DNA of 32,000 nt from NCBI GenBank assembly GCA_964480775.1, contig CAYZRF010000001.1, positions 58,201 to 90,200 of the forward strand. Reading direction: 5' to 3'. The notes below the pieces were generated by a model that saw nothing but the letters and a program-made list of their open reading frames with translations, did not search any database and was not told the DNA's origin. The DNA comes from an uncultured Nitrososphaerota archaeon. GTDB lineage: Archaea > Korarchaeota > Korarchaeia > Korarchaeales > Korarchaeaceae. The position numbers and the translations under genes were made by a program. This document shows positions 8,074-21,142 of this stretch, in pieces (positions within the stretch are counted from its first letter, which is position 1; every line of letters starts with the position of its first letter).

Positions 8074-8077
8074 AACC

Positions 8078-9975: not shown

Positions 9976-10995
9976 TTACCCATTACCTTCTTTCTTTCCC
10001 TTACCTTTGTTCTTATCATGTCCTAGCTTCCTTCCCTTACCTTTTCCTTCATTTTCAAGAGGATTCATGCCCTGAACGCTTTCACTTTCAATTTGTTTTA
10101 TCTTTCCCTTACCCTTGGCTTCTAATTGTTTTCCGCGCGCAACGGTCTTTTTCATCTCTCTTAGAATCTCCTTAATTTTCTTTACATCTCCTTTAGCCTT
10201 GGCTTCATTAAACTCATTTGTAAGGTTAGCGATTTTGGATTCAACTTCTTCTGGTATCGCTGTGAGGTTCATTTTTGACAAAGTTCTATTGAGCATTTTT
10301 TCAGCCTTAGCAATTTGACAGCACTTTACGACCTCCTTCTTCATTTCAGCCCTGATCTTATTGGCTTTTGCAAGCATTTTTGCGGCTTCGCTGGCGTTAT
10401 AGAAAGCAATAAGAGATCCATTCTCCAGCATCATAGATGCATTTTGATATAGCTGATTGAATAAGCTCAGATTCATGTATGTCCCGCTTACGTTCATTAT
10501 CTTTTGAATACTGAGATTTAGCTTGGTAAGCAACCTCTTGTGCCTTTCAAAAGCTACTTGCAGCCTTATCATGGATCCAATCGGTGTTGAGGTCTGGTTA
10601 GACGGCTCGTTCTTATGAACCTCTTTTAGGACACATCTAAGCATATTTATGGCTTTTTTCGTTAAGAAGGAAGCTTGAGAACAGTTCCCTTCTCCTAAAG
10701 ATGAATTAGCTTGTAGTGCAAGGGAGTAACTTAGGTTTAGAAGCTCTCCAATGCTTACTGTCCTGCTTAGGTTGATGTCTAAGCTAGACATGTTTGGAAT
10801 GGAAAGGTTCTCCTCCAAACTTAGGTTTGATGATTCCACTTTGCTTGAAACATAGTCATACGCCCTGAAGTAAATTGACAATAGGCTGCCTGCAGTTTCA
10901 CATGGATTTTTGACCTCTCCATCAGCTGCAATTTGTAAGACTGGAGCAAGGAGTAAGATCATGATAAAGATCAAAGGTAATTTTCTAGCTTCCAT
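9976..10995 (-). CDS. Exported alpha-helical protein, N-glycosylation-sequon-rich, with Lys/Gly-rich C-terminal tail (paralog of 17328-18284)
   Basis: The signal peptide is MEARKLPLIFIMILLLAPVLQIAA. I count 17 N-x-S/T sequons. The tail reads KGKGKIKQ...EGKGKGRKLGHDKNKGKGKKEGNG. It shares blocks with the 321-aa protein, for example TKKAINMLRCVLKEVHKNEPSNQT vs AKKAINTLREALLNVKEEYTPSNNAT. Confidence 0.75.
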   Translation of the reverse strand: MEARKLPLIFIMILLLAPVLQIAADGEVKNPCETAGSLLSIYFRAYDYVSSKVESSNLSLEENLSIPNMSSLDINLSRTVSIGELLNLSYSLALQANSSLGEGNCSQASFLTKKAINMLRCVLKEVHKNEPSNQTSTPIGSMIRLQVAFERHKRLLTKLNLSIQKIMNVSGTYMNLSLFNQLYQNASMMLENGSLIAFYNASEAAKMLAKANKIRAEMKKEVVKCCQIAKAEKMLNRTLSKMNLTAIPEEVESKIANLTNEFNEAKAKGDVKKIKEILREMKKTVARGKQLEAKGKGKIKQIESESVQGMNPLENEGKGKGRKLGHDKNKGKGKKEGNG

Positions 10996-11039
10996 TTTTG
11001 ATCTTCAACATATATTAGGATAATCTCAATTTAAGGGAC

Positions 11040-11097
11040 GAGATTGGGAGAAAATGGGATTGCAGTGAAAGAAAATGGAAGAGATTGGGAGAAAATG
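11040..11097. repeat. Two exact copies of GAGATTGGGAGAAAATG, 41 nt apart, with an extra GAAAATG between them
   Basis: The copies are at 11040-11056 and 11081-11097, with GAAAATG also at 11071-11077. The repeats lie immediately upstream of the TATA-like CTTAAATTG (minus strand, about 11028-11036) of the gene starting at 10995. Confidence 0.6.
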
Positions 11098-11116
11098 CAA
11101 GGAAATGAGACCATTT

Positions 11117-11131
11117 GAAACGAAACGAAAC
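11117..11131. repeat. (GAAAC)x3 tandem pentanucleotide repeat
   Basis: Read directly: GAAACGAAACGAAAC. It is intergenic, between the stop of the PPC-domain gene (11228) and the start of the 339-aa gene (10995). Confidence 0.8.
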
Positions 11132-11227
11132 CCTTTGCACTTAAATCTCTGAAGATGGTTATAAAAGTGGCTAGAGCTTATGTAGGGGACAATCAAGCAA
11201 GTTATGCTATTTTTTGTTGAAAAACGA

Positions 11228-12526
11228 CTACCTCTCTTTCTGCAGCTTTCTAACCTCTTCAAGATACTCTTCTATCCTCTTATCAATCAGTGCAAATTGT
11301 TCCTCAGTTATGCGTCCCTTAACCAAATCCCTTTGAGCCTCTTCCCTTATTGACAGGAGTGCAGCTTCGCACTCAGCCGCATTTGATTTGAATTCTCTAA
11401 AAGTAATCTCTATCTTCCTCATCAGAACTCTTAGCCTGGATCTTCTCATCTTAGAGACAACCCACGCAGAGATTGGTACGGCTATGGAAATAGCTATTCC
11501 CACGTATTCAGTTAATGAGATTCTTGTCCCAGTAGGTGCTGAAACAGTCGGAGGGGCTGTTGTTGGTTGCACGGTACTTGGAGAAGTGGTAGTTGTTGGA
11601 GTTGGTGTTGGAGACATAATTGGAGGAGGGGTCGGAGAAGGGGATGTTTGAGTCTTTCCTTCCCCTAACGTTATTTGAAGATCATAGTCGCAGACTACTT
11701 CTCCTACAGAGAAGCCAGTCGAGGAATGGACCTTTATGTAAACATCTTGTCTCTTAGGAGAGGTCCACTCAACGTTCAATATCTCGTCCATTTGCATTGA
11801 AACTTTTTCAGCTACCACATTTCTGTCCTCATCATAAATCGAGAGAACAAGGGTGTAAAGCAAGGGATTGCTTCTATAGTTTTTAGGTATGAGCTTGACC
11901 ATGAGTTTTTGGTTCGCATTTAACGTCATCTTGTAGTAGTCAGCATCATCATATCCATTTTTTGCTACAGCAATGAAACCATGATATGTTCCTTCACCTT
12001 CTGGAAGTTCTAAAAAATTCTCAAGTGTGTCCCCTGCATCTCTTCCACTATCTGCGTCGAAATGATCTGAGATCGAAATCGTAACGTCGAAGTTGGCTCC
12101 AGACATATAAGCGCCGTCGCATCTTATTGAGAAGTAGATTTCGTGTGAAGGCAGATCTGATCCCGCAAACCAGGCTAACTCATAAGTTTCTAAGGACGTA
12201 ACTGGACAAAACAGGCTCTCTAAGAGATTTCCATCCCAATCATAGAGGTTAATATGTAGACTAGAACCAGGAAACGATTTTTTCGGGCTTAATCTTATCT
12301 TTATGTAAAGTTCTTGGCCAGGTTTGATGTTTTTAACCTTGAAGAACTGGACTTCCCCTGGATCGATTTCCCCTCCGTTGTGTTCTCCAGGACTTAAGGG
12401 AGTGGCTTTTTCAAAGCTTTCTCCTCCTTTTAACTGAGCGGATAAATTGATTAGGGGGAAGGAGATTAACAATACAGAGATAGATAAGGAAAAAAGCACG
12501 GCTCTTAGGATAAGGGAAGAGCTCAT
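11228..12526 (-). CDS. Single-pass membrane protein: signal peptide, two PPC (pre-peptidase C-terminal)-like beta-sandwich domains, Thr/Pro linker, TM helix, cytoplasmic SHOCT-like coiled tail
   Basis: Two PPC-like blocks are present: GEVQFFKVKNIKPGQELYIKIRL...INLYDWDGN and DDADYYKMTLNANQKLMVKLIP...LSIYDEDRN. The linker is TQTSPSPTPPPIMSPTPTPTTTTSPSTVQPTTAPPTVSAPTGT and the TM helix is YVGIAISIAVPISAWVV. The tail contains GRITEEQFALIDKRIEEYL. The ATG at 12524-12526 is preceded by GAGGTGGGGG. The track start at 12541 is TTG. Confidence 0.8.
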   Translation of the reverse strand: MSSSLILRAVLFSLSISVLLISFPLINLSAQLKGGESFEKATPLSPGEHNGGEIDPGEVQFFKVKNIKPGQELYIKIRLSPKKSFPGSSLHINLYDWDGNLLESLFCPVTSLETYELAWFAGSDLPSHEIYFSIRCDGAYMSGANFDVTISISDHFDADSGRDAGDTLENFLELPEGEGTYHGFIAVAKNGYDDADYYKMTLNANQKLMVKLIPKNYRSNPLLYTLVLSIYDEDRNVVAEKVSMQMDEILNVEWTSPKRQDVYIKVHSSTGFSVGEVVCDYDLQITLGEGKTQTSPSPTPPPIMSPTPTPTTTTSPSTVQPTTAPPTVSAPTGTRISLTEYVGIAISIAVPISAWVVSKMRRSRLRVLMRKIEITFREFKSNAAECEAALLSIREEAQRDLVKGRITEEQFALIDKRIEEYLEEVRKLQKER

Positions 12527-12659
12527 GCCCCCACCTCTCAACCGGGGAGAAAAAAATGTTGTTTCACTTTTTGGGATCTCTCAAAAAATTTAATTTTTTA
12601 CTTCGCCCAAAAATATAAAATAAAAACTTAAGATAGCCTGAAAGAACGCTATAGAAGTT

Positions 12660-12706
12660 GAAAAAGTAACAATAGTTAAAGAAAAGCGAAGAACTGAGAT
12701 AAAAAT
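12660..12706 (-). terminator. Cluster of oligo-T runs downstream of the ABC ATPase gene
   Basis: After the stop at 12732 the minus strand reads CATTTTTATC...GCTTTTCTTTAAC...TACTTTTTCAAC. Confidence 0.3.
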
Positions 12707-12731
12707 GTGATTATAGATATTTCTTGAAAGT

Positions 12732-13445
12732 TCAATGATGATTCGATGGGAGCACCTTCTTTTCTATCCTTTCAATTCTGCCGTCACGCATATAGACGAC
12801 TCGATCGCTTGCTCCAATCATCTTAAGGTCGTGGGTGGCTGCAATTATGGTCACACCACGCTTCTCATTTAGTTCTTTTAGAATGTTAATGATCTCCCTT
12901 CCAGTTTGGAAGTCCAAGTTTCCAGTCGGTTCATCTGCCAGTATAATTGCTGGATCATTAACCATGGCTCTTGCTATAGCTACACGCTGTTGTTGTCCTG
13001 CTGAAAGCTCAGAAGGTCTGTGATTTAGTCTATCCCCAAGACCAACAGATCTAAGGATCATCTCAGCCTTCTTTCTGCCCTCATCCCTGGGAACTCCTGC
13101 AAAGATTGTAGGTAGTGCAACATTCTCCAAAGCTGTGAGGGTTGGTATTAGGTTGAAGGTCTGGAAGATGTACCCTATCTTCCTGCAGCGAAGCCAAGCC
13201 AGCTCATATGCGTCAAGCTGAGAGATATCAACCTCGTCTATTATGACCTTTCCTCGTGTTGGTCTATCAAGACCGCCAATCATGTTGAAGAGAGTGGTCT
13301 TCCCTGCGCCAGAGGGACCTACTATTGAGAGATATTCTCCTCTGTAAACCTTTAGGTTTACGCCATCAAGGGCTTTTATTACCTCTCCTCCTAGCTCGTA
13401 GTAGCGAGCCAAATCCTTAGTTTCGATTATGATATCAGATCTCAT
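12732..13445 (-). CDS. ABC transporter ATP-binding protein, MacB/LolD/FtsE-like (type VII ABC)
   Basis: Walker A is GPSGAGKTT, the Q-loop region is YIFQTFNL, the signature is LSAGQQQRVAIARA, and Walker B is IILADEPTGNLD with an H-loop THD. The start overlaps the upstream permease stop by 11 nt. Confidence 0.95.
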   Translation of the reverse strand: MRSDIIIETKDLARYYELGGEVIKALDGVNLKVYRGEYLSIVGPSGAGKTTLFNMIGGLDRPTRGKVIIDEVDISQLDAYELAWLRCRKIGYIFQTFNLIPTLTALENVALPTIFAGVPRDEGRKKAEMILRSVGLGDRLNHRPSELSAGQQQRVAIARAMVNDPAIILADEPTGNLDFQTGREIINILKELNEKRGVTIIAATHDLKMIGASDRVVYMRDGRIERIEKKVLPSNHH

Positions 13446-14043
13446 ATCTCAAAGCCTCCACAGGATCCAATTTCGCTGCCTTGTAGGCTGGATACATTGT
13501 AGCAACAATGCTTAGGAAGATTGAGAGGAGAACAACCTTCCCTAGAAGGATGAGAGGAACTGCTGGAGAAAGCTCAAATACAACGTGAAAGCCTATTGAG
13601 AAGCCACAGGCTAAAATGGAGGCCACAAGTCCTATCCCAAAGCCAAAAATGCCTCCCAAGAGGGCCATGATTATGGACTCGACGAGGAAGAGTTTGAGTA
13701 CGTGCTGATCTAGGGCTCCTAGGCACTTCATCGTGCCAATCTCCCTGTATCGCTCGTATACGGCTATGAGCATCGAGTTGGTTATGCTTACGATGCAGAC
13801 AGCAAGCGATACAAGGACTAGTCCGTATTGATAGCTTTCAACGATTAAGCTACCTCCTTCCACTTGAGCGTAAAGCTGAAAGAAGTTATCCATGAATGAA
13901 AGGGTAGAGAAAAAAGCTATTCCTAGCGTAACAGCAGCTATGCTTAGAACTGCCCTATCGAAACGCCTCTTCACGTTCTCGTATCCGAGCCTTAATGCAT
14001 CCGTAAGGCTGAACGTTATTTTCCCTTTCTCCTCTAAGTTCAA
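13435..14043 (-). CDS. Minimal FtsX-family ABC permease (4 TM, almost no extracytoplasmic domain)
   Basis: The N-terminal motif ALRLGYENVKRRFDRAVLSIAAVTLGIAF matches the MacB/FtsX TM1 entry. The C-terminal FtsX domain includes YERYREIGTMKCLGA...YPAYKAAKLDPVEALRYE. The TTG start at 14041-14043 is preceded by the strong SD AAGGAGGTG. Confidence 0.85.
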   Translation of the reverse strand: MNLEEKGKITFSLTDALRLGYENVKRRFDRAVLSIAAVTLGIAFFSTLSFMDNFFQLYAQVEGGSLIVESYQYGLVLVSLAVCIVSITNSMLIAVYERYREIGTMKCLGALDQHVLKLFLVESIIMALLGGIFGFGIGLVASILACGFSIGFHVVFELSPAVPLILLGKVVLLSIFLSIVATMYPAYKAAKLDPVEALRYEI

Positions 14044-14085
14044 CTAAACACCTCCTTTCTCTCAAATTCTAATGTATAGGCCAAT

Positions 14086-17085
14086 TTATCTGCTACCTCC
14101 TATTTTTCCTCTTTTAACATTCCACTCCAAAAGGATCCTACGAATGAAGGAGCCAGTCTTTTGAGCCGCCTCAGGAAGCCCATCGCTTATGAGTATGACC
14201 TCATAAACATCTTTCCCTACACCTTTTCTCAGAATGAGCTTGTTTCTCGTGTGAATAGGGCTCATCTGGCCCCCAGATGCATAGAAAAACTCTATAGTTC
14301 TGATGAATGCGTCTTCCTTCTCCTCCCTACTCTCTCCTATTACATAGGTATGATCTTCGTAGTCATCCATTCTAGATCTGAGTGCCCCCAAGACGAATTG
14401 CGTGAATTCCTCCACCTCCTCTTCTGCGATCCAGATTGGTAGGGTTAACTTAAAGGGTTCAGCGATATTGTATGCGCGCACATCTATCTTCCATCTTCTC
14501 TTGAGAGAGGGAGTAATAATTACAGATCCTTTCAAGGCCGTTACGCCTCCAACAAGAACTGCCGCTAGCGAAACAGTCATGGCAGCAAGCGTCCATAGAG
14601 CTGAGATCTTTTGCCTGACTTGTAGGGCTGCTGCCATAAGTGAAAGGGCCCTGTACCATCCGAAGCCGAGAAGGTAACCGATTCCACCTCCTACGACTCC
14701 AATAACTGCTGCCTCAGCTAGGAATATGCTTGCTATCTGGCTGGGGTTAATCCCTATAGAGGAGTAGATCAGGATATCTCTTTTCCTCTCGTATAGGGAG
14801 TTTAGCATCGTTATGACTACGTTAAGTACGACTATAAACCACGGAATTGCCACAGGAAGGCCCTTTCCTTCAAAGTAAGATGCTAAGCGAGCTAGACAAA
14901 CTTCTTTCTCGGTAGAAGCCCATACCCTGAAGCCTTTGTTGAGAGCTATTATCCTAGCACGCTCCTTCAAGTCCTCACCTTCCTCTAACAAGATATCTAT
15001 GCGGGAAAGCTGTAGCCCAGGGATCTTTGAGGCGGTCTTCCAAGTAGTCACGAGAATCTCGCTCGCAGAGCAAGGCGTCAAACCTTCAGTTATAATGTCG
15101 AAGCCCTCCTCTACAGGAGTCCTTCGAACTTCCACAATCTTCATTGGGAGAGGAGACCCTCCATCTAGGTCTCTAAGGTTCTCAAACTTTAGATCATCAA
15201 ATATCCCGACAATCTCTAGAGTAAGCCTTTTCCCTGAAATCTGGAGGGTTAAACTTTCTCCAACTGTTAAATTCAATTTCTTTTTAAGCTTCTCGCTGAT
15301 GAGGATGCTGTTCTCGTCCTCATCTCTCAGATATCTCCCCTCTACTATCGTTTTATTTAGGGACAGAATCTCCGCCTCTGCGCTAGGGACTATGCCAATT
15401 ATACCGAATACTGGATGCCCTTCCACGTATCCTAGTGGGTTGTAGGAACCTCTGTACTTGTACTGGCGGTGAGGTGTGTTTTCATATTTAGGTGCTACGA
15501 GGCGTACGTATGGACGAGCTTTGAACCACTCAATGGAGGAGTTTTCGAGAGGTGCGAACCAGAACACCCCCTTTCCTCCACTTACTGGTGCACGAGCCTC
15601 CATTACTGGAGGCTTCAGTGTCCTCACCATGATTCCTAATGAAGGCCCGGGGTGCTCGGAAACCTTGCTGAGGGTGAGACCATAGCCAGTTGTGAAGGAT
15701 GTCAGGGCGATGAAACTTGAGACAAGGATTACGACAGAAATAAGAGTTAGAGCCGATCTTAGCTTCCTTCGCCTTAAATTCCTCTTAGCTATAGAGAAGA
15801 TGGGAACTATTATGTTCCTCAGGGGTACTCGCCCTCTAAACTCCTTACCCTTTAATAACCTTGGAAAGAGCACAAAGAAGCATAAGATCGCAGTGAATGA
15901 GATCAGTGAGGTTCCTATGAAAAGAGCAAAAGCCATCATCCTGCTTCCTGGATATAGATAGTATGCTGCCAGCAAGAATAGGGCATAAAAGGCGGTCGCT
16001 GCACAGATCTTGCGATTTTCTTCTTCAAAATATAGGAATGAGACCGAAGTTGCCGTGAAAGCGAGAAATGGGATCAAAAGAAACGCTGACTTCAAGGCTT
16101 CGACATACATTTTGTTGAGCCAGCTTTGGAGATTAGAGATTTCCGTGTAGGCTTCCCGGAGTTTAGCGAAAGAGGATTCATAGGCATTTTGATCAAAAAG
16201 ATTCTCAGCCTCCAAGATCAGAGAGTTTATACGTGTCAATTTCTGTATTTCAACCGCTACATAAAAGCCCTCCCTTTCTCTTTCCTTTATCGTTAAATCA
16301 ACCTCAGATACCCTTTCTTTAACTGTTGACAGGGTATTGCGAATCGAGAACTCAGTCAGATCAATGTGAATGGACTCACCTTTCTTAAGAAGGAAGTGGC
16401 CTTGTCTATCGATGATGAATCTAAGTGCAACGGCTTCTTTTCTTTGAAATAGCACAATACGAGGCTGCTCCGTAACTTCGATTCCCGATTCAACCTTAAT
16501 CAAGAAAGGGATGCCTGCTGGAACTATGACTAGATTTGAGCTCAGCCCCAAGTATTTATTAGGAAACTCTAAGATTTCACCAAATTTGAGTGCATATTCA
16601 CCAAACTCCATAACTTTCCCTGAGCTTGGATCTAATACTGAAAATACAGGTTTTAATGACTCAGTTGACTCAACGAATAGAACTTCTCCATCTAAAATAA
16701 TGGATGCCCCATCCCAAAGCTCAAGGGTAATGTTTAGTTTCCCTCCAGACTTTGTTTCTATTCTCTTCATCGCTGGTATGTAGTCAAATCCTGGGGTATG
16801 GGGGTCATCGTAATATACACAGATGGTGTAGTTGGAGCCCACAGGGAGTTTTATGATGAAGCTACCATTTGAATCGGCTTCTCCCTGAAAAACCTTGCGG
16901 GAGTAGGATCCAAAAGGTCCAGCCAAAACTAAGATATTGGCGTTTGGGACGGGATTTCCAGTCCTACTCTCCCTGACGACGCCTGTTACAGTTATGTCCT
17001 CATCGCCAAAGACAGGGAATATTGGCAAGATCAATGACGCGGCTAAGAACGCTGAAAGGAGAAGCAATGATCCCCTTTTGGGCAT
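14086..17085 (-). CDS. Giant FtsX/MacB-type permease fusion: signal peptide, CarboxypepD_reg-like Ig domain plus ~300-aa exodomain, 3 extra TM helices, MacB-type core with ~280-aa extracytoplasmic domain, ~140-aa cytoplasmic C-terminal domain
   Basis: ITVTGVVRESRTGNPVPNANILVL...SNGSFIIKLPVGSNYTICV is carboxypeptidase-regulatory-like. IAKRNLRRRKLRSALTLISVVILVSSFIALTS is the FtsX TM1 entry. LYERKRDILIYSSIGINPSQIASIFLAEAAVIGVVGGGIGYLLG is the FtsX domain. The ATG at 17083-17085 (MPKRGSLLLL) is preferred over the TTG at 17103. Confidence 0.85.
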   Translation of the reverse strand: MPKRGSLLLLSAFLAASLILPIFPVFGDEDITVTGVVRESRTGNPVPNANILVLAGPFGSYSRKVFQGEADSNGSFIIKLPVGSNYTICVYYDDPHTPGFDYIPAMKRIETKSGGKLNITLELWDGASIILDGEVLFVESTESLKPVFSVLDPSSGKVMEFGEYALKFGEILEFPNKYLGLSSNLVIVPAGIPFLIKVESGIEVTEQPRIVLFQRKEAVALRFIIDRQGHFLLKKGESIHIDLTEFSIRNTLSTVKERVSEVDLTIKEREREGFYVAVEIQKLTRINSLILEAENLFDQNAYESSFAKLREAYTEISNLQSWLNKMYVEALKSAFLLIPFLAFTATSVSFLYFEEENRKICAATAFYALFLLAAYYLYPGSRMMAFALFIGTSLISFTAILCFFVLFPRLLKGKEFRGRVPLRNIIVPIFSIAKRNLRRRKLRSALTLISVVILVSSFIALTSFTTGYGLTLSKVSEHPGPSLGIMVRTLKPPVMEARAPVSGGKGVFWFAPLENSSIEWFKARPYVRLVAPKYENTPHRQYKYRGSYNPLGYVEGHPVFGIIGIVPSAEAEILSLNKTIVEGRYLRDEDENSILISEKLKKKLNLTVGESLTLQISGKRLTLEIVGIFDDLKFENLRDLDGGSPLPMKIVEVRRTPVEEGFDIITEGLTPCSASEILVTTWKTASKIPGLQLSRIDILLEEGEDLKERARIIALNKGFRVWASTEKEVCLARLASYFEGKGLPVAIPWFIVVLNVVITMLNSLYERKRDILIYSSIGINPSQIASIFLAEAAVIGVVGGGIGYLLGFGWYRALSLMAAALQVRQKISALWTLAAMTVSLAAVLVGGVTALKGSVIITPSLKRRWKIDVRAYNIAEPFKLTLPIWIAEEEVEEFTQFVLGALRSRMDDYEDHTYVIGESREEKEDAFIRTIEFFYASGGQMSPIHTRNKLILRKGVGKDVYEVILISDGLPEAAQKTGSFIRRILLEWNVKRGKIGGSR

Positions 17086-17114
17086 CTGATGTCCCTCGTC
17101 CAATGCGCGAAGAG

Positions 17115-17130
17115 CTAAATATAAAATAAA
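17115..17130 (-). promoter_or_regulatory. TATA-box-like element for the ABC operon
   Basis: The minus strand reads TTTATTTTATATTT, centred about 35-40 nt upstream of the ATG at 17085 and about 20 nt upstream of the TTG at 17103. Confidence 0.35.
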
Positions 17131-17275
17131 GGGCTAATTAAGAAAAAACTCATGAGAGAATAATCTAGCTCTTTTTATCTATAGAACAAGCACAATTTCA
17201 TGAATTTTGAATTAAATTGGGTCTATCGGAAACATCAGAACCTTGACTCATTCCATCAGGATGTTCCATCTCATT

Positions 17276-17290
17276 ACGCAAAGCTTGCGT
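17276..17290. promoter_or_regulatory. Inverted repeat ACGCAA-AGC-TTGCGT just upstream of the TATA-like TTATTTTT of the 321-aa gene
   Basis: Read directly: 6-bp arms with a 3-nt spacer. The TATA-like element is at 17300-17307 and the first ATG at 17328. A direct repeat TTCCATC (17251-17257 and 17264-17270) lies just upstream. Confidence 0.35.
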
Positions 17291-17327
17291 TACGGTTCCT
17301 TATTTTTCTCAAGTTATCTTGATTAAC

Positions 17328-18284
17328 ATGATGGCGATGATGAAAGCTGATAAAACACGGAAAATCCTGGCCTTATCTGTCTTAACGCTCACGTGCATAG
17401 GTCCTATATTTACGATTGCAGCTCAACCAGAAGATCAAGGAAACATAGCAGAAAAGATATTACAGATCTATAATCGAGCTAGAGAACTCACTCTCCGTTG
17501 GGCTATAAGGGCAGAACAAGCAGGTGTTAAGGACATAGCCGAGGAACTAAGGAGGGCCGTTGAGAAGGCAGACGATCTGATCAATCAAGCAAAGGATAAA
17601 TTAGAATCAGGAGAGAGAACAGAAGCTGCTGAACTCGCTAAAAAAGCCATAAATACGCTAAGAGAAGCATTGCTTAACGTAAAGGAGGAGTATACTCCAT
17701 CAAATAATGCGACTAGAGCAAAGGAATTCTTGCTTTCCGCTGTCAGGAGGCTAAGAGGTCTTATCCAGAAGCTGGAAAACTCCCTCAGAGCACTTGAGAG
17801 TAGAGGAATGGATGTAAAGGAACCTAGAGAAAAGCTGGAAAGAGCTAAAGATATGCTAGAGGACGCAACTGGACTGATAAGTGAAGGTAAGCTTGGAGAG
17901 GCTAGAAAAAAGATAGAAGGGGCTGTTGAATTAATGAGAGAGGTTTACTCTTGGATCAAAGAGCACATTAAGGAAGCTAAGAAGGAGATGTTGGAGAGAA
18001 GGGTTCAGCGTATTGTGTCAGCTTCTGAGAGGACCATTGAAAAACTCGAAAGCCTTGAGGAATGGCTGATTCAACATAACAGAACGGAGGCTGCTGCCAA
18101 AGTTTCAGAGGCTAAGAGCGCTCTGTCTCAAGCTCTGAGAGATTTTAATGATGCAGTGGAGGAGCAGGACTATGCTGCTGCCAGAGAAGCCCTTAAGAAG
18201 ATGTTGATAATACTCAGAAGGATAAGGCAGTACGTCATAGAATACAAGTCTCACAAAGGGATTTCAGCAAGAGCAGGGGGTTAA
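17328..18284 (+). CDS. Exported, highly charged alpha-helical repeat protein (paralog of 9976-10995)
   Basis: The signal peptide is KILALSVLTLTCIGPIFTIAAQ, followed by continuous E/K/R/A-rich helical sequence. It shares blocks with the 339-aa protein. Several in-frame ATGs occur at 17328-17342. The track start at 17319 is TTG. Confidence 0.8.
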   Translation: MMAMMKADKTRKILALSVLTLTCIGPIFTIAAQPEDQGNIAEKILQIYNRARELTLRWAIRAEQAGVKDIAEELRRAVEKADDLINQAKDKLESGERTEAAELAKKAINTLREALLNVKEEYTPSNNATRAKEFLLSAVRRLRGLIQKLENSLRALESRGMDVKEPREKLERAKDMLEDATGLISEGKLGEARKKIEGAVELMREVYSWIKEHIKEAKKEMLERRVQRIVSASERTIEKLESLEEWLIQHNRTEAAAKVSEAKSALSQALRDFNDAVEEQDYAAAREALKKMLIILRRIRQYVIEYKSHKGISARAGG

Positions 18285-18327
18285 AACCCTTCTCCTTTTT
18301 ATTTTGATTTCCCTCAATTAGAGAGGA

Positions 18328-19203
18328 TTGAAGACCATAAATAGAGTAGCTCTACTCTTGATGCTATTGACCTCCCCCGTTCTAGTTGCTTCACAAACAT
18401 CACCAGAAATTGTCGAAATAGAGGTGTACGAAGATGGCTGGGTCAATTTGAGTTATGAGATCAGCTTCTCAGATCCAGAACTAGTCGTCTATCTGCCCCT
18501 TTATGCTTCCCCAACATTTTTAGTTGTTATGGACGAAGAAGGTCTGCCCCTTAATGCTTCAGTAGTAGGAGAGTTTGTTGAGGTCCAACTCCTCGGGTCT
18601 CAGAAGGTAAAGATTTCATACTTCACTCAGGATATTGTCGAGAAGAAAGGAGCAGTCTGGACCTTAAATCTCAGCGTAATTCCCGTGAAAGCTCTTATAA
18701 CACTGCCTAAAGGTGCAAGAATTATTGGTCTATCGGATGTCCCTGAGACAATAATTACTGGAGGAGAGGAAAAAGGAATTCAATTAGTTATGCCTTCTGG
18801 AGCTAAATGGATAAGCTATGTTCAATCCTTCCCCTCAGTAATCGAAGGTGAGCAAAGCAAAGAATGGTGGAAGCCCCTTTGGTTTCTAATTCCGATAAGT
18901 TTTGGGGCCTTATCTGTCATCCTGATTGTAATTCGAATAAGAAGAGCTAAAGAGAAGAAAAAACTGGATCTTGTGGACAAAAAGATTCTGAAGGAACTTG
19001 CAACAGGTGGCCTTTACCTTACGGAATTGGCCGAGAAGATCGGAAGGTCAAAAACAACGGCATGGAGGCGTTGTCGTGCACTTGAAAAGGCTGGTTTGCT
19101 AAGGGTAATTAGGAGACCGGATGGAAACTTCATAAAATTAACAAATTCAGGTCAAACCTTGGCTAAAAAGTCTGAAGAACTAACTAACCAAGGAAAAGTC
19201 TAA
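18328..19203 (+). CDS. Membrane-tethered winged-helix DNA-binding protein: signal peptide, ~160-aa beta-rich exodomain, TM helix, cytoplasmic wHTH
   Basis: The signal peptide is MKTINRVALLLMLLTSPVLVASQ and the TM helix is WWKPLWFLIPISFGALSVILIVI. A positive-inside stretch RIRRAKEKKK follows. Then comes KILKELATGGLYLTELAEKIGRSKTTAWRRCRALEKAGLLRVIRRPDG, a MarR/ArsR/TrmB-like wHTH at about 18970-19152. The TTG start is preceded by GAGAGGA. Confidence 0.75.
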   Translation: MKTINRVALLLMLLTSPVLVASQTSPEIVEIEVYEDGWVNLSYEISFSDPELVVYLPLYASPTFLVVMDEEGLPLNASVVGEFVEVQLLGSQKVKISYFTQDIVEKKGAVWTLNLSVIPVKALITLPKGARIIGLSDVPETIITGGEEKGIQLVMPSGAKWISYVQSFPSVIEGEQSKEWWKPLWFLIPISFGALSVILIVIRIRRAKEKKKLDLVDKKILKELATGGLYLTELAEKIGRSKTTAWRRCRALEKAGLLRVIRRPDGNFIKLTNSGQTLAKKSEELTNQGKV

Positions 19204-19238: not shown

Positions 19239-19284
19239 GGCCTCCCATCTGGCTTTTAAATAAAGTGGTCTTTCAGAAAAGTTG

Positions 19285-19794
19285 ATGTCAAGAGAAGAAC
19301 TCCCCTTTGGCCTAGAATCAGACGAAAGAGTGCTTTGGAGCAAGCGTCCAGAGACCGCTCCTTACTTAGGAAAATCATTGATCTTCACAATACTAGGACT
19401 CTTCTTTGCCATACCTGCTACAGCCGTGCTCATAGAAATAAAGAGCGCACCTTTGTTTCTTTTGGCGCTTCCAGGAATTATAGCTATTGTAGGATACTTT
19501 CTAGCAATCATACCTCCTTTAGCAAAGGTTCTGTCCTTGAAAAAGGTCAAGTATTTGATCACAAACAAGAGAATCGTAATACTTGGCGGTGTGTTTGATT
19601 CATCTATCAAGACAATTGATTTTTCTGACATAGAGTCGGTGATCATTAGGAGAGGATTCTGGGACAAAAGATTTGGGACTTCAACGCTTTACATAATCGT
19701 AAAGGGCGTTTTCATCGTACCCTCCTTCTCTTCCATAACGAATGCGGAGGAGGCTAAGGAACTGATAGAGAGGATGCTTGCTGAACGAAGGTAA
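19285..19794 (+). CDS. Membrane protein with bacterial-type PH domain (bPH_2/YdbS-YdbT-like)
   Basis: Two TM helices (IFTILGLFFAIPATAVLI and LLALPGIIAIVGYFLAIIPPLA) are followed by VKYLITNKRIVILGG...TIDFSDIESVII, which is typical of bPH_2. The ATG at 19285 immediately follows the TTG at 19282. Confidence 0.7.
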   Translation: MSREELPFGLESDERVLWSKRPETAPYLGKSLIFTILGLFFAIPATAVLIEIKSAPLFLLALPGIIAIVGYFLAIIPPLAKVLSLKKVKYLITNKRIVILGGVFDSSIKTIDFSDIESVIIRRGFWDKRFGTSTLYIIVKGVFIVPSFSSITNAEEAKELIERMLAERR

Positions 19795-19805
19795 GAAGTC
19801 CTTGG

Positions 19806-20186
19806 GTGGGTTCTGTGAAGTGTGTTCCGGGTTGTTACCTATGTTGTGTTGAAACTGACATGATACTCACAAAAGAAGACTTCAAAAACCTTCTATCTTT
19901 AGGATATAGGCCTGAGGAATTCTCAGAGTATCGAGACGGATATCTAAGGCTAAAAAATAAGAAAGGAAGGTGTTTTTTCTTAAACGAAAGAGGGACCTGT
20001 ACAGTCTACAAGAACAGACCAGTAGGTTGTAGGGCCTATCCAGTTGTTTATGACGTTAAGGAAAGAAAATGCAAGATAGATGAAGAATGCCCAGCAGGGA
20101 ATACCGTCACGCCAGAAGAGTTCTTAGAGAAATGTAAGCTAGTTATCAGAGCTCTGCCACAACTAATAAAGGGGGATACGGGTTGA
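19806..20186 (+). CDS. YkgJ-family cysteine-cluster protein (CxxCxxCC Zn/Fe-chelating domain, UPF0153)
   Basis: CVPGCYLCCVE is the CxxxCxxCC block. CFFLNERGTCTVYKNRPVGCRAYP is the hallmark second block. GTG start. The stop overlaps the next gene's start (TTGA at 20183-20186). Confidence 0.75.
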   Translation: MGSVKCVPGCYLCCVETDMILTKEDFKNLLSLGYRPEEFSEYRDGYLRLKNKKGRCFFLNERGTCTVYKNRPVGCRAYPVVYDVKERKCKIDEECPAGNTVTPEEFLEKCKLVIRALPQLIKGDTG

Positions 20187-21106
20187 CAGTTAGCTGCAAA
20201 TACTGTGATAAAGTTGCTAAATACTTTGTCCCGAATTTAGGAGCCTCTCTGTGTGATGAACACTTTTTATCCTACTTTTACAAGAGAGTGAAGAGAGTTC
20301 TTGAGAGAGCTGGCAAGGGAAAGAGGATTTTGGTCGGCGTCTCAGGTGGGAAAGACTCCATATCTGCATTATATGCGCTCTCAGCACTTAGAGATGAGTT
20401 TAATATAGAAATTGGCGCCGTACACATAGATTTAGGCTTTCCAGGTATGGAAGAGTGCTGTGAGATATTTAGAAGGGCTTGTGTAAGAAACGGGGTAAAA
20501 CGGTACGTGATCTCCTTAAAAGAAGAGTATGGCTTTGCTATTCCCGATTTAGCTAAGAGTATAAGGACCCTCTGTCAAGCTTGCGGTGTTGTTAGGAGAT
20601 ACCTGCTAAATAAGCTTGCATGGGAAGAAAAATATGATTTCGTTGCTACAGGTCATAATCTAGATGACATGGTTTATTTCGCGTTCAACAACCTGATTAC
20701 TCATAACATTTCCTTTCTAAACACATTGGATTCTGTTCTACCCTCAATTCCAAGACTCAAGCTAGTTGGAAGGATTAGGCCTTTGTTTTGGCTAAACGAC
20801 ATGGACTCTCTAACATATCTAGAAGTAATAAACGCAGAGTACTGTTATAGAAAGTGTCCTTTTCATGAGAAAACGAAACAATTATTTCTAAAGCCTCTAT
20901 TCGATGAAGTCCAAAAGGAATGGCCCCAAAGCAAGATAAATCTGGTTACCTCCTTGAGAAAGTTAGTGAGATTATCATCGATTATTGAGAAGAGAGAAGA
21001 AAGCATGAGACTCTGCTCGAGGTGTGGCTATCCAAGTATGTTAGAAATATGCTCCTTTTGCAGATTAAGAGAAAAAATTGAAAAGGCCAAGGCCTCTGAT
21101 CTTTAA
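20183..21106 (+). CDS. ttuA: tRNA 2-thiolation PP-loop ATPase, TtuA/Ncs6 family
   Basis: The N-terminal zinc finger is CKYCDK...CDEH, the PP-loop is VGVSGGKDS, and GHNLDD is present. Fe-S ligand candidates are CQAC plus YCYRKCPF. The C-terminal zinc finger is CSRCGYP...CSFC. The length (307 aa) matches archaeal TtuA. Confidence 0.85.
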   Translation: MTVSCKYCDKVAKYFVPNLGASLCDEHFLSYFYKRVKRVLERAGKGKRILVGVSGGKDSISALYALSALRDEFNIEIGAVHIDLGFPGMEECCEIFRRACVRNGVKRYVISLKEEYGFAIPDLAKSIRTLCQACGVVRRYLLNKLAWEEKYDFVATGHNLDDMVYFAFNNLITHNISFLNTLDSVLPSIPRLKLVGRIRPLFWLNDMDSLTYLEVINAEYCYRKCPFHEKTKQLFLKPLFDEVQKEWPQSKINLVTSLRKLVRLSSIIEKREESMRLCSRCGYPSMLEICSFCRLREKIEKAKASDL

Positions 21107-21142
21107 AAAGAGGCTATTTCCCATTAATCAGGAGGGATTGAC

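What the first reader, a model, noticed from the sequence alone, without database searches (positions are those of the whole stretch)
9976..19203. Cell-envelope module built around an atypical MacB/FtsX-type ABC machine
Eight adjacent genes, all encoding exported or membrane proteins apart from the ABC ATPase, form two divergent arms around the 17104-17327 intergenic region.

The minus arm carries a giant FtsX fusion permease, a minimal FtsX permease, a MacB/LolD-like ATPase, a double-PPC-domain anchor protein and an exported sequon-rich helical protein. The plus arm carries a charged paralog of that helical protein and a membrane-tethered wHTH protein.

No solute-binding protein or classical importer/exporter TMD is present. 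Type VII (MacB/FtsEX/LolCDE/BceAB) ABC systems are known to do mechanical work or sensing outside the membrane rather than transport across it.

The co-location with a transmembrane DNA-binding protein resembles the logic of bacterial BceAB-BceRS flux-sensing modules, but with an archaeal one-component regulator. That comparison is my inference only. I cannot tell from sequence alone whether this gene combination has been described.
Basis: partly seen in the sequence, partly recalled or inferred. Interest (0 to 1): 0.7.

Follow-up and report, generated by a model that had tools for sequence, protein, structure and literature searches.

The report
Split MacB-type ABC machine, Bathyarchaeia
The region holds a real and unusual three-gene ABC "mechanical" membrane machine (a 1000-residue FtsX protein, a 200-residue FtsX protein with no outer domain, and an ATPase) conserved across Bathyarchaeia and found in some bacteria. 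The neighbouring regulator and surface-protein genes are separate units that only sit next to it in this lineage.

Summary
The genes are at the stated coordinates, but the "eight-gene module" does not hold.

**What is conserved.** Only giant FtsX (14086-17103, -), mini-FtsX (13435-14043, -) and an MJ0796/LolD-type ATPase (12732-13445, -) stay together:
- In 37 of 44 giant-seeded loci that could be judged.
- In 9 of 9 loci seeded on close mini-FtsX relatives.
- In Desulfococcus multivorans, a bacterium.

**What is separate.**
- The helical protein and membrane-tethered wHTH pair occurs without the ABC genes, in contig L063 and in a Thermococcus contig.
- This pair has its own conserved palindrome at 17273-17293, found once in the window.
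- The PPC-like and sequon-rich genes are present only in the closest relatives.

**The giant protein.**
- AlphaFold2 (pLDDT 84) plus Foldseek confirm a MacB/LolCE/YbbP-type core.
- Added parts are an N-terminal beta-sandwich ectodomain, three extra membrane helices and a C-terminal cytoplasmic domain with no Pfam match.
- It matches PADLOC profile "CARF_m8--CARF_LolE_TM" (E 3e-159) but lacks the CARF tail that some relatives carry.
- Other relatives carry M28 peptidase or GH2 glycosidase ectodomains.

**Best reading.** A new variant of a type VII ABC mechanotransducer with a split, asymmetric (BceB-like) membrane part. The mini/giant heterodimer is inferred, not shown. The BceRS-like sensor link is not supported.

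The parts
14086..17103 (-). Giant FtsX-family permease. The ORF is 1005 aa; the database protein P0001 is 999 aa, so the likely start is the ATG at 17085. Core gene 1.
   Evidence: **Domains and fold**
- Pfam: MacB_PCD 450-639, FtsX 755-858, CarboxypepD_reg 38-98 (sub-threshold).
- AF2 pLDDT 83.7, pTM 0.72.
- Foldseek: MacB 1e-9, LolE/LolC, YbbP, YtrF, HrtB.
- PADLOC: PDLC01991 CARF_m8--CARF_LolE_TM, E 3e-159, residues 264-998 aligned to profile positions 3-683 of 810.

**Distribution**
- 58 homologous clusters.
- 54 genome loci, almost all Bathyarchaeia.
16099..16998 (-). Giant, residues about 36-335: N-terminal extracytoplasmic 'payload', made of two beta-sandwich domains and a helical stalk that runs into the membrane.
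   Evidence: - AF2 secondary structure: strands 36-248, helices 249-358.
- Foldseek local hits to Gram-positive shaft pilins and to the S-layer stalk protein SlaB (8qox_B, E 3e-5).
- Conserved motif around G105-D107-Y108-P110.
- Relatives carry M28 peptidase, GH2 or DUF4185 (sub-threshold) domains at this position.
14854..15702 (-). Giant, residues 468-750: MacB-like periplasmic core domain between FtsX TM1 and TM2.
   Evidence: - Pfam MacB_PCD, E 1.7e-10.
- Foldseek match to the LolE periplasmic domain 5udf_B (TM-score normalised to target 0.54).
14086..14502 (-). Giant, residues 868-1005: C-terminal cytoplasmic alpha/beta domain. It is the signature of the family, has no Pfam model, and is not a CARF domain.
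   Evidence: - AF2 of the domain alone: pLDDT 87.3, pTM 0.81, order beta-alpha-beta4-alpha.
- No Foldseek hit at E<=1e-3; only weak PsbP/DcrB/Mog1/KA1-like matches.
- The domain profile finds 288 representatives among 1.84 billion. Nearly all hits lie at the C-terminal end of proteins of about 900-1100 aa.
- It aligns to PADLOC profile positions 556-683. The CARF part is positions 679-810 and is absent here.
13435..14043 (-). Mini-FtsX (202 aa): four TM helices, no extracytoplasmic domain. Core gene 2.
   Evidence: - Pfam FtsX 75-194.
- PDB sequence hits cover only the TM2-TM4 region of MacB, LolC and YtrF.
- More than 120 clusters of about 203 aa at >=52% identity.
- Invariant coupling-helix motif ERxREIGTMKC, plus invariant residues in the short outer loop (D52, F54, E69, Y73).
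- 33% identical (E 2e-31) to the 228-aa mini-FtsX next to the Desulfococcus giant.
12732..13445 (-). ABC ATPase of the MJ0796/LolD/MacB type. Core gene 3. It overlaps the mini-FtsX gene by 11 nt.
   Evidence: - Pfam ABC_tran, E 4.5e-36.
- NCBIfam: LolD, MacB and FtsE profiles score best, all below their equivalog cut-offs.
- PDB: MJ0796, E 2e-70.
- Walker A, signature and Walker B motifs are intact in the translation.
- Median 74% identity across loci.
- T-rich tracts follow the stop codon.
17086..17318 (.). Divergent intergenic region. An A/T-rich TATA-like box (GCTAAATATAAAA, about 17113-17126) lies next to the giant gene. An operator-like element lies next to helB.
   Evidence: - Sequence read directly.
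- Alignment of six orthologous spacers.
17273..17293 (.). Palindromic operator-like site TTACGCAAAGCTTGCGTTAC, about 30-50 nt upstream of helB. It belongs to the helB-wHTH cassette, not to the ABC operon.
   Evidence: - Conserved upstream of helB orthologues in L055, L057, L058, L062 and L063; L063 lacks the ABC genes.
- Single site in the 32-kb window, against 0.22 matches expected by chance.
- Exact matches in only 3 of 146 loci, all upstream of helB.
17319..18284 (+). helB: exported all-helical charged protein, first gene of a separate cassette. Adjacent to the ABC module, not part of it.
   Evidence: - Signal peptide 16-34.
- No Pfam family above threshold; faint YfdX match.
- Orthologues only in L001, L055, L057, L058, L062 and L063.
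- Weak similarity to a 402-aa exported helical protein that precedes a TM-wHTH gene in Thermococcus.
18328..19203 (+). Membrane-tethered wHTH protein: signal peptide, beta-rich ectodomain, TM helix 184-202, cytoplasmic wHTH 213-259. Second gene of the separate cassette.
   Evidence: - Pfam HTH_24, E 6.5e-9.
- Only 9 homologous clusters.
- Two homologues in tandem cassettes in Thermococcus contig L059, with no ABC genes in the 8 kb upstream.
11228..12541 (-). Variable neighbour, not part of the ABC module.
   Evidence: - No Pfam or PDB sequence hit.
- Internal repeat E 0.02.
- Present in L001, broken into three ORFs in L057, absent in L007, L055 and L058.
- A 190-nt AT-rich gap separates it from the ATPase gene.
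9976..10995 (-). helA: exported helical protein with 17 sequons and a Lys/Gly-rich tail, paralogue of helB. Variable neighbour.
   Evidence: - Sequon count and paralogy with helB.
- Present in L001 and L058, split in L057, absent in L007 and L055.
- In L063 a helA-like gene is the direct divergent neighbour of helB.
11026..11262 (-). 78-aa ORF in the PPC-helA spacer; probably not a gene.
   Evidence: - No domain, no TM helix, composition typical of non-coding sequence.
- Conserved only where the DNA itself is about 80% identical.

Best explanation
The finding region is a juxtaposition of independent units.

**Unit 1: a three-gene ABC operon (the real feature).** It comprises the giant FtsX protein, the mini-FtsX protein and the ATPase. 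It encodes a type VII (MacB/LolCDE/FtsEX/BceAB-class) ABC mechanotransducer whose membrane part is split and asymmetric.
- An ATPase dimer would sit under two FtsX-type four-helix modules.
- One module is the mini-FtsX. It has the N-terminal amphipathic helix and the ERxREIG coupling helix needed to engage an ATPase, but no outer domain.
- The other module is the C-terminal half of the giant. It has the same coupling elements plus a MacB-like periplasmic core domain.
- ATP binding and hydrolysis would move the giant's stalk helices, and with them its two outer domains, rather than carry a solute across the membrane.
- The N-terminal outer domain is a swappable payload. It is a non-catalytic beta-sandwich and stalk here. 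In relatives it is an M28 peptidase, a GH2 glycosidase or a DUF4185-like domain.
- The likely job is therefore ATP-powered positioning or activation of a surface-binding or hydrolytic domain, or extraction of a membrane- or envelope-bound substrate toward it. This resembles FtsEX with its hydrolase activators, or YbbAP-TesA.
- The C-terminal cytoplasmic domain is a family signature. In some relatives it links to a CARF nucleotide-sensor domain, which the window protein lacks.

**Unit 2: helB + membrane-tethered wHTH.** A self-contained cassette with its own palindromic operator.

**Unit 3: the PPC-like and helA genes.** Lineage-specific surface-protein genes.

**Shown:** gene content, fold class, conservation of the triad, independence of the other genes, absence of the CARF tail.
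**Inferred:** the mini/giant heterodimer, the mechanotransmission cycle, and the nature of the substrate.
For: **The triad is conserved.**
- 37 of 44 evaluable giant-seeded loci have mini-FtsX and the ATPase immediately adjacent, in two layouts.
- 9 of 9 evaluable metagenome loci seeded on close mini-FtsX relatives have a giant with the C-terminal domain adjacent.
- The same triad occurs in Desulfococcus multivorans: mini 228 aa, then ATPase, then a 1595-aa giant.
- With a longer partner FtsX, it occurs in a Verrucomicrobia MAG and another contig.
- The mini-FtsX and ATPase genes overlap by 11 nt.
- T-rich tracts and a 190-nt AT-rich gap follow the ATPase gene.

**Fold.**
- The AF2 model has pLDDT 83.7.
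- Foldseek top hits are MacB, LolC/E, YbbP, YtrF and HrtB.
- The ATPase is of the MJ0796/LolD type.

**Asymmetry and coupling.**
- Both FtsX proteins carry the basic N-terminal helix and the ER-x-R-[ED]-I motif (translations; alignments).
- The giant's three extra TM helices are joined by 6-residue loops with no coupling helix.
- The engine evolves slowly and the giant fast: median identity to the window is ATPase 74%, mini-FtsX 52%, giant 34%.
- Several MAGs have two or three giants but only one mini-FtsX/ATPase pair was seen.

**Swappable payload.** Pfam assignments on relatives.

**CARF-bearing relatives, and no CARF here**.

**The other genes are independent**.
Against: - No complex prediction or experiment supports the mini/giant heterodimer.
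- Orphan giants exist with no pair within 2-10 kb (L017, L019, L042, L043, L051, L056, L064, L066).
- Many distant mini-FtsX/ATPase pairs have no giant within 7 kb. Giant homodimers and mini homodimers sharing one ATPase therefore remain possible.
- No substrate or partner is identified.
- The window's payload domain has no catalytic signature.
- All conservation evidence comes from MAGs and metagenome contigs, and much of the synteny among Bathyarchaeia could be vertical inheritance. The bacterial triads argue against that being the whole story.
- The helB-wHTH operon is divergently adjacent to the giant in every close relative that has both. Regulatory cross-talk in this lineage cannot be excluded.
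Confidence: 0.6

Rival explanations
1. All seven or eight genes form one cell-envelope module in which the membrane-tethered wHTH protein senses the activity of the ABC machine, as in BceAB-BceRS, and regulates both arms.
For: - Divergent adjacency of the two arms in the window and in L001, L055, L057, L058 and L062.
- All products except the ATPase are exported or membrane proteins.
Against: - The adjacency is confined to relatives whose whole flank out to PolB is syntenic.
- It is lost at 57% giant identity (L056).
- It is absent in more than 45 other giant loci and in the bacterial triads.
- The wHTH family has only 9 clusters.
- The cassette occurs without ABC genes in L063 and, within the sequence available, in Thermococcus.
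- The conserved operator-like palindrome occurs once, in front of helB only.
- The PPC-like and helA genes are absent in L007 and L055, and both are broken into fragments in L057.
Confidence: 0.07
2. Same three genes, different assembly. The giant forms a homodimer with the ATPase dimer, as MacB and FtsX do. The mini-FtsX forms its own homodimeric complex without an ectodomain, or acts as an accessory, on the same ATPase.
For: - Orphan giants, and mini-FtsX/ATPase pairs without a giant, both exist.
- MacB and FtsX are homodimers (review PMC5985334).
- Mini-FtsX and ATPase are always directly coupled, whereas the giant's position and strand vary.
Against: - The triad is conserved across archaea and bacteria.
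- Residues in the mini-FtsX's short outer loop are invariant, which suggests a conserved contact.
- BceB shows that a half without an ectodomain paired with a half carrying one is a workable type VII design.
- A type VII machine with no outer domain at all would have nothing to move.
Confidence: 0.25
3. The system is an ordinary MacB/SalXY-type exporter or detoxifier for antimicrobial peptides or hydrophobic compounds. The extra domains are lineage decoration.
For: - Database names given by sources are 'ABC-type antimicrobial peptide / lipoprotein release transport system permease'.
- The closest solved relatives include MacB and the S. pneumoniae MacB-like transporter.
Against: - No adaptor (MacA-like) gene and no resistance-type regulator is conserved nearby.
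- The signature C-terminal cytoplasmic domain, the extra TM helices and the enzyme payloads in relatives are not features of known efflux members.
- All NCBIfam equivalog scores are far below their cut-offs.
Confidence: 0.12
4. The giant is an antiviral-defence effector, like its CARF-bearing relatives, and the operon is a defence island component.
For: - Strong match to PADLOC profiles CARF_m8--CARF_LolE_TM (E 3e-159) and CARF_m8--CARF_Beta-galactosidase_LolE_TM (E 7e-79).
- About 19 of roughly 150 family representatives carry a true CARF tail.
Against: - The window protein ends at profile position 683 of 810 and has no CARF tail.
- None of the 57 giant loci examined has the tail.
- There are no cas or other defence genes in the 32-kb window.
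- The one CARF-giant context that could be read has no cas genes within 10 kb.
- In many Bathyarchaeia the gene sits beside the S12-S7-EF-1alpha ribosomal cluster.
Confidence: 0.06

Closest known systems
BceAB (bacitracin-type type VII ABC transporters of Firmicutes)
   Same: - The membrane part is asymmetric: one FtsX-type four-helix module without an outer domain, plus one with a large outer domain.
- It is driven by a dimer of a separate LolD-like ATPase.
- The permease carries extra TM helices.
- Source: review PMC5985334; BceA is among the ATPase PDB hits.
   Different: - Here the two halves are separate polypeptides, whereas BceB is one 10-TM chain.
- The giant adds a second, N-terminal outer domain, three (not two) extra helices and a cytoplasmic C-terminal domain.
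- No co-evolving BceRS-type sensor is present. The neighbouring wHTH is not a conserved partner.
LolCDE (heterodimeric type VII ABC lipoprotein extractor)
   Same: - Two different FtsX-family permeases share one ATPase dimer.
- LolE/LolC structures and the LolE periplasmic domain are among the best Foldseek hits.
- LolD is among the best matches to the ATPase.
   Different: - LolC and LolE are similar in size, and both have periplasmic domains.
- Archaea have no outer membrane and no LolA/LolB.
- NCBIfam LolC/E/D equivalog scores are far below their cut-offs.
FtsEX with its hydrolase activators, and YbbAP-TesA
   Same: - A type VII ABC engine controls or feeds an extracytoplasmic hydrolase rather than pumping a cytoplasmic solute (PMC12646458).
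- Relatives of the giant have M28 peptidase or GH2 domains fused on the outside.
- YbbP is a Foldseek hit.
   Different: - In those systems the hydrolase is a separate protein. Here the payload is fused to the permease.
- The window's payload is a non-catalytic beta-sandwich.
- FtsX is a homodimer, and YbbP is a fused double permease with two outer domains.
CARF_m8 'CARF_LolE_TM' proteins (PADLOC-DB profiles PDLC01991 and PDLC01990). I recall these names as coming from Makarova et al. 2020, NAR; that paper could not be read here.
   Same: Homologous over about 735 residues, covering stalk, extra TM helices, FtsX module and C-terminal domain (E 3e-159).
   Different: - The defining CARF domain (profile positions about 679-810) is absent from the window protein.
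- I found no accessible text describing the mini-FtsX/ATPase partners or any function.
MJ0796 (Methanocaldococcus jannaschii LolD-like ABC ATPase)
   Same: Best solved-structure match of the ATPase (E 2e-70). It is an archaeal representative of the MacB-family nucleotide-binding domains (PMC8277102).
   Different: MJ0796 is known only as an isolated ATPase structure. Its permease partner and function are not characterised.

Membership tests
Type VII (MacB/FtsX superfamily) ABC systems | Permease with FtsX-type topology: TM1, extracytoplasmic domain, then TM2-TM4 (Pfam FtsX PF02687). | tested here: met
   - Giant: FtsX, E 1.1e-10, and MacB_PCD, E 1.7e-10; Foldseek hits MacB, LolCE, YbbP, YtrF and HrtB at prob 1.00.
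- Mini-FtsX: FtsX, E 4.5e-19, but its outer loop is only about 24 residues.
Type VII (MacB/FtsX superfamily) ABC systems | Cognate ATPase of the LolD/MacB/FtsE clade with intact catalytic motifs. | tested here: met
   - NCBIfam best hits are LolD, MacB and FtsE.
- PDB best hits are MJ0796, MacB NBD and LolD.
- Walker A GPSGAGKTT, signature LSAGQQQR and Walker B ILADEPT are present in the translation.
Type VII (MacB/FtsX superfamily) ABC systems | Mechanotransmission: ATP-driven movement of the outer domain without transmembrane transport. | not testable with these tools
   Needs biochemistry or structures in different nucleotide states. Inferred from fold class only.
BceAB-BceRS flux-sensing modules | Single 10-TM permease (BceB) with one outer domain between TM7 and TM8. 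| tested here: not met
   - There are two separate permease genes.
- The giant has an N-terminal anchor, three extra TM helices and four FtsX TM helices, with two outer domains.
BceAB-BceRS flux-sensing modules | A co-evolving, conserved neighbouring signal-transduction partner. | tested here: not met
   - The wHTH gene is adjacent only in the closest relatives.
- It is absent from more than 45 other loci.
- Its family has 9 clusters.
- The cassette occurs without ABC genes.
LolCDE | LolC/LolE/LolD equivalog-level similarity; two permeases that each have a periplasmic domain. | tested here: not met
   - NCBIfam scores are far below the cut-offs: lolCE 56.5 and 26.6 bits against 362; LolD 237 bits against 308.
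- The mini-FtsX has no periplasmic domain.
CARF_m8 (CARF + LolE-like TM) proteins | Presence of the CARF nucleotide-sensor domain. | tested here: not met
   - The window giant aligns to profile positions 3-683 of 810.
- The CARF part (679-810) is matched by the tails of P0234 and P0316, which also cross-hit CARF1-4 profiles.
- Neither the window protein nor any ORF in L001-L063 matches the tail.
CARF_m8 (CARF + LolE-like TM) proteins | Homology of the non-CARF body: stalk, TM helices, FtsX module and C-terminal alpha/beta domain. | tested here: met
   - PDLC01991, E 3e-159, 530 bits.
- The C-terminal domain alone aligns to profile positions 556-683, E 3e-20.
PPC (bacterial pre-peptidase C-terminal) domain proteins (claim for 11228-12541) | Match to Pfam PPC or related profiles. 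| tested here: not met
   - No Pfam family at E<=10.
- No PDB sequence hit below E 0.1.
- Only a weak internal repeat.

The most novel reading that the evidence does not exclude
Mini-FtsX + ATPase + giant would be a previously undescribed, cross-domain class of type VII ABC inside-out transducers.
- A conserved engine (ATPase dimer plus an FtsX protein with no outer domain) would pair with interchangeable giant subunits.
- The giants would display different surface payloads: binding beta-sandwiches, M28 peptidases or GH2 glycosidases.
- In CARF-tailed members, the machine would be switched from the cytoplasm by cyclic-oligoadenylate-type signals.
- Cytoplasmic ATP or nucleotide signals would then mechanically control enzymes or adhesins on the cell surface, including in Bathyarchaeia.
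Probability: 0.2. Interest if true: 0.75.

Novelty: new variant of a known kind. Interest (0 to 1): 0.5.

Why it matters
**For ABC transporter biology.**
- Type VII ABC systems are known almost entirely from bacteria: MacB, LolCDE, FtsEX, BceAB, YbbAP, YtrEF and HrtBA.
- The known membrane layouts are homodimer, LolCE-type heterodimer and fused double permease (PMC5985334).
- A split layout, one bare FtsX plus one giant multi-domain FtsX, conserved in an uncultured archaeal class and in some bacteria, would add a new architecture.
- It would also give a natural system in which one engine may serve several exchangeable outer subunits.

**For defence signalling.**
- Relatives carry hydrolase ectodomains and CARF tails.
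- This points to a testable link between cytoplasmic nucleotide signalling and events on the cell surface.

**For Bathyarchaeia.** It marks a conserved, fast-evolving surface machine in organisms whose envelope is essentially uncharacterised.

**For the scan.** The eight-gene "module" should be split into three unrelated units.

Tried and rejected
- **The search for related loci with the 22-sequence alignment A1** failed: no stretch was conserved enough. It was redone with 11 closer sequences.
- **phmmer and 4-round jackhmmer** of helA, orf78, PPC-like, helB, wHTH and bPH against six-frame ORFs of 57 loci found hits only in the closest relatives, plus one PPC-like ORF in L032.
- **All-against-all clustering of neighbour ORFs** found only shadow ORFs and housekeeping genes as recurrent neighbours. 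These were judged vertical synteny rather than functional linkage.
- **Pfam at E<=10 and PDB sequence searches** for the PPC-like, helA, helB and wHTH proteins gave nothing informative.
- **The C-terminal domain** gave no significant PDB result, either with a sequence profile or with Foldseek on its own model. The idea that it is a degenerate CARF was rejected for three reasons: the strand order looks antiparallel, there are no CARF structural hits, and the CARF part of the PADLOC profile lies beyond it.
- **The giant's N-terminal half as a second FtsX unit.** Its topology (anchor, ectodomain, three TM helices) fits. It is not a functional coupling unit, because its loops are 6 residues long and carry no coupling helix.
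- **Literature searches** for Bathyarchaeota+FtsX, Bathyarchaeia+'lipoprotein release', 'FtsX-like permease'+M28 and CARF+LolE found nothing relevant.
- **The CARF classification paper** (PMC7498327 / 10.1093/nar/gkaa635) is not held in the library. Later CRISPR papers do not mention LolE/FtsX effectors.
- **tRNA and Rfam scans** of the window were empty.
- **Cluster look-up** gave no names or accessions.

Full report
**1. What is there.**

The region 9976-19203 holds seven credible ORFs.

On the minus strand:
- A 1005-aa protein at 14086-17103. The database copy P0001 is 999 aa, so the start is probably the ATG at 17085.
- A 202-aa FtsX protein at 13435-14043.
- A 237-aa ABC ATPase at 12732-13445, overlapping the previous gene by 11 nt.
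- After a 190-nt AT-rich gap with T-tracts, a 437-aa exported and C-terminally anchored protein at 11228-12541.
- A 339-aa exported helical protein at 9976-10995, with 17 N-x-S/T sequons against 3.4 expected.

On the plus strand:
- A 321-aa exported helical protein at 17319-18284. It is a distant paralogue of the 339-aa protein (24% identity, E 2e-6; confirmed by jackhmmer).
- A 291-aa protein at 18328-19203 with a signal peptide, an ectodomain, one TM helix and a cytoplasmic winged helix (HTH_24, E 6.5e-9).

Two details of the observation do not hold. The "eighth gene" can only be the 78-aa ORF at 11026-11262, which looks non-coding. The "double PPC" label could not be verified: there is no Pfam hit even at E<=10, no PDB sequence hit, and only a weak internal repeat.

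The window is ordinary chromosome of a Bathyarchaeon. It carries PolB, an IF-2B-like gene, GNAT acetyltransferases, MFS, EamA, CutA1 and a TtuA-like PP-loop ATPase. It has no cas genes, no tRNA and no Rfam match.

**2. Synteny test, seeded on the giant.**

The giant has 58 homologous clusters. It has 54 loci among one-genome-per-species contigs, nearly all labelled Bathyarchaeota, Bathyarchaeia or Thermoproteota. Three further contexts came from metagenome contigs.

- The seven window proteins and neighbours were searched against six-frame ORFs of all loci. Only the mini-FtsX and the ATPase recur. Of 44 loci with at least about 2 kb beyond the giant's 3' end, 37 have the pair immediately adjacent.
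- Two layouts occur. In one, giant, mini and ATPase are co-directional, as in the window, often followed by a second, convergent giant. In the other, the mini-ATPase pair converges on the giant.
- Seven loci hold orphan giants (L017, L019, L032, L042, L043, L051, L056).
- Several MAGs have two or three giants.
- The other recurrent neighbours are housekeeping genes: EF-1alpha, S7, S12, UbiA, MFS, a cyclophilin-like protein, a DGQHR protein and AOR. These were read as vertical synteny.
- Median identity to the window across 35 loci is 74% for the ATPase, 52% for the mini-FtsX and 34% for the giant. The engine is conserved and the exposed subunit evolves fast.

**3. Reciprocal and cross-domain tests.**

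- Eighty metagenome loci were seeded on the mini-FtsX. Mini-to-ATPase adjacency is almost universal.
- For the close clade (at least 43% identity, L067-L076), a giant with the signature C-terminal domain is adjacent in 9 of 9 evaluable loci.
- Among more distant mini-FtsX loci, about 14 of 30 evaluable have an 800-1800-aa giant within 7 kb. The rest have none.
- The weakest hits of the giant search are bacterial proteins of 1460-1680 aa with an M28 peptidase N-terminus. They align to giant residues 442-913.
- In the complete genome of Desulfococcus multivorans the order is mini-FtsX (228 aa; 33% identical to the window's, E 2e-31), then ATPase, then giant.
- A Verrucomicrobia MAG and another contig have a 488-493-aa partner FtsX, then ATPase, then giant, then an OPT-like protein of about 670 aa.
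- The triad is therefore not just inherited gene order within one archaeal class.

**4. The other genes are separate units.**

- The wHTH family has only 9 clusters.
- It lies next to a giant only in relatives where the whole block helB-wHTH-bPH_2-CxxCxxCC-PP-loop-CutA1-MFS...PolB is syntenic.
- At 57% giant identity (L056) the arm is gone.
- In L063 (wHTH 57% identical) the gene divergent from helB is helA-like (45% identity over residues 4-110, E 1.6e-17), with no ABC genes between them.
- In a Thermococcus contig the order is exported helical protein (316 aa), TM-wHTH (320 aa), exported helical protein (402 aa), TM-wHTH (288 aa). No ABC genes lie in the 8 kb upstream, and the contig ends just after the last gene.
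- Aligning six orthologous spacers shows one conserved element, consensus YRTTRCGYAACGATTRCGTAACGGTTCCTTATT, just upstream of helB. It is also present in L063.
- In the window this element is the palindrome TTACGCAAAGCTTGCGTTAC at 17273-17293. It occurs once in 32 kb, against 0.22 matches expected. It occurs exactly in only 3 of 146 loci, always before helB.
- Nothing comparable precedes the giant, PPC-like or helA genes.
- The PPC-like and helA genes are intact together only in L001 (81% giant identity). They are broken into several ORFs in L057. Both are absent in L007 and L055, where the ATPase gene is followed by DUF362 or IF-2B respectively. In L058 only a helA-like gene remains.

**5. 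Anatomy of the giant.**

AlphaFold2 on a 51-sequence alignment gave pLDDT 83.7 and pTM 0.72. The order of parts is:
- An N-terminal anchor or signal helix (11-24).
- Beta-sandwich domains (36-248).
- Three long helices (249-358), the last entering the membrane.
- Two more TM helices (362-383, 392-417), joined by 6-residue loops.
- A basic amphipathic helix (429-445).
- FtsX TM1 (447-467).
- A MacB-like periplasmic core domain (468-750).
- TM2-TM4 (752-859).
- A cytoplasmic alpha/beta domain (884-1004).

Foldseek against the PDB puts MacB, LolE/LolC, the S. pneumoniae MacB-like permease, YbbP, YtrF and HrtB on top (E 1e-9 to 3e-5). Local hits of the N-terminal part go to shaft pilins and to the S-layer stalk protein SlaB.

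The C-terminal domain:
- Modelled alone (pLDDT 87.3), it has no significant structural relative (best E 0.02; PsbP/DcrB/Mog1/KA1-like).
- It has no Pfam model.
- Its profile finds 288 representatives among 1.84 billion, nearly always at the C-terminal end of proteins of about 900-1100 aa.

Both FtsX proteins carry the elements that contact an ATPase: the basic N-terminal helix and the ER-x-R-[ED]-I coupling motif. The giant's extra helices do not. The mini-FtsX has invariant residues in its 24-residue outer loop.

**6. The link to CARF proteins.**

- A PADLOC scan matched the giant to PDLC01991 "CARF_m8--CARF_LolE_TM" (E 3e-159; residues 264-998 aligned to profile positions 3-683 of 810). It also matched PDLC01990 "CARF_m8--CARF_Beta-galactosidase_LolE_TM" (E 7e-79).
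- About 19 of the roughly 150 listed representatives, plus P0044, P0046 and P0052, have about 130 extra C-terminal residues.
- These tails match profile positions 679-810 and cross-hit CARF1-4 profiles.
- The window's C-terminal domain matches positions 556-683 only.
- The window protein is therefore a CARF-less member of a family whose CARF-bearing members were catalogued in a CARF census. That paper could not be read here.
- The single CARF-giant context I could read (L066) has no cas genes and no ABC ATPase within 10 kb. It sits next to an M28-type giant.
- Payload domains differ among relatives: CarboxypepD_reg, M28 peptidase, GH2 and DUF4185 (sub-threshold).

**7. Interpretation.**

The best-supported reading is a type VII ABC mechanotransducer with a split, asymmetric membrane part. 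An MJ0796/LolD-type ATPase dimer would be coupled to one bare FtsX module (the mini-FtsX) and one FtsX module carrying the outer machinery (the giant).

This is the BceB design (review PMC5985334) in two polypeptides, with an added N-terminal payload domain and a cytoplasmic C-terminal domain. By analogy with FtsEX and YbbAP-TesA (PMC12646458), and given the hydrolase payloads in relatives, ATP turnover probably moves or activates the outer domains rather than transporting a cytoplasmic solute.

- Shown: fold class, conserved triad, independence of the neighbouring genes, absence of CARF.
- Inferred: the heterodimer, the cycle and the substrate. Orphan giants, and mini-ATPase pairs without giants, keep the homodimer alternative alive.

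**8. Verdict.**

- Novelty: a new variant of a known kind, partly catalogued under another name (CARF_m8 LolE_TM).
- Interest is moderate (0.5). The architecture, the exchangeable payloads and the CARF-tailed relatives make a concrete, testable story. The window's own copy is a chromosomal, CARF-less member with unknown substrate.

Noticed in passing
window 17273-17293; also L055, L057 9768-9787, L058 6935-6954, L062 1482-1502, L063: A conserved palindromic, operator-like element (two TTACGYAA-type half-sites one helical turn apart, followed by GGTTCCTTATTAC) lies directly upstream of helB orthologues. It occurs once in the window and in no locus lacking helB. It is a candidate autoregulatory site for the membrane-tethered wHTH.
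   Followed up: partly
L059 4674-8867 (Thermococcus sp. metagenome contig): A tandem duplication of an 'exported helical protein + signal-peptide/ectodomain/TM/wHTH' cassette. The 316-aa helical protein ends in a basic Gly-rich tail like the window's helA. This suggests a conserved archaeal two-gene unit built on a type I membrane-anchored transcription factor, which I could not find described.
   Followed up: partly
P0234, P0268, P0314, P0316, P0322, P0044, P0046, P0052 (relatives, not in the window): A subset of giant FtsX proteins carries a C-terminal CARF domain after the signature domain. P0316 also has an N-terminal GH2 beta-galactosidase-like ectodomain. The cytoplasmic CARF and the extracellular enzyme lie on one type VII ABC permease.
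   Followed up: partly
L060, L061, L064, L065, L066: Bacterial and M28-type giants are repeatedly followed by an OPT-like polytopic protein of about 650-670 aa and/or neighboured by a DUF6785 protein. A second small ABC ATPase is sometimes present. This may be an extended bacterial version of the module.
   Followed up: no
L002-L054 (for example L010 8772-9158, L002 17049-17432): In 30 of 54 Bathyarchaeia loci a cyclophilin-like gene of about 130 aa is the divergent neighbour of the convergent-type giant. It is followed by a DGQHR-domain gene, UbiA, and the S7/S12/EF-1alpha cluster. This was read as vertical synteny and not tested further.
   Followed up: no
L057 14499-17086; L058 3635-6632: In the 79%-identical relative, the PPC-like gene is split into three ORFs and helA into two. 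In L058 the giant is split into ORFs of 518 and 469 aa. These are either pseudogenisation or assembly frameshifts.
   Followed up: no
window 19282-21487 (+): The block bPH_2 membrane protein, CxxCxxCC protein, TtuA-like PP-loop ATPase and CutA1 follows the wHTH gene in every relative that has the cassette (L055, L057, L058, L062, L063). It is co-directional with short gaps, so the wHTH operon may extend further than the finding's end coordinate.
   Followed up: partly
L016, L019 (DATLAV01, labelled Patescibacteria group bacterium); L043 (DATKWY01, labelled Candidatus Desulfaltia sp.): Typical Bathyarchaeia-type giants (31-34% identical, full length) sit on contigs of MAGs labelled as bacteria. 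These are probably binning contamination rather than transfer.
   Followed up: no
L032 4834-5490 (-): A PPC-like ORF (phmmer E 1e-7) lies 1.5 kb downstream of a distant giant (32% identity). It is the only co-occurrence outside the closest relatives and may be chance.
   Followed up: no
window 6539-7327, 3804-4814, 4854-5393: Three GNAT acetyltransferase genes lie within 4 kb. One has the Rv0428c-like C-terminal domain. Two tandem Amidohydro_2 genes (7342-8839) are also nearby. All are unrelated to the finding.
   Followed up: no
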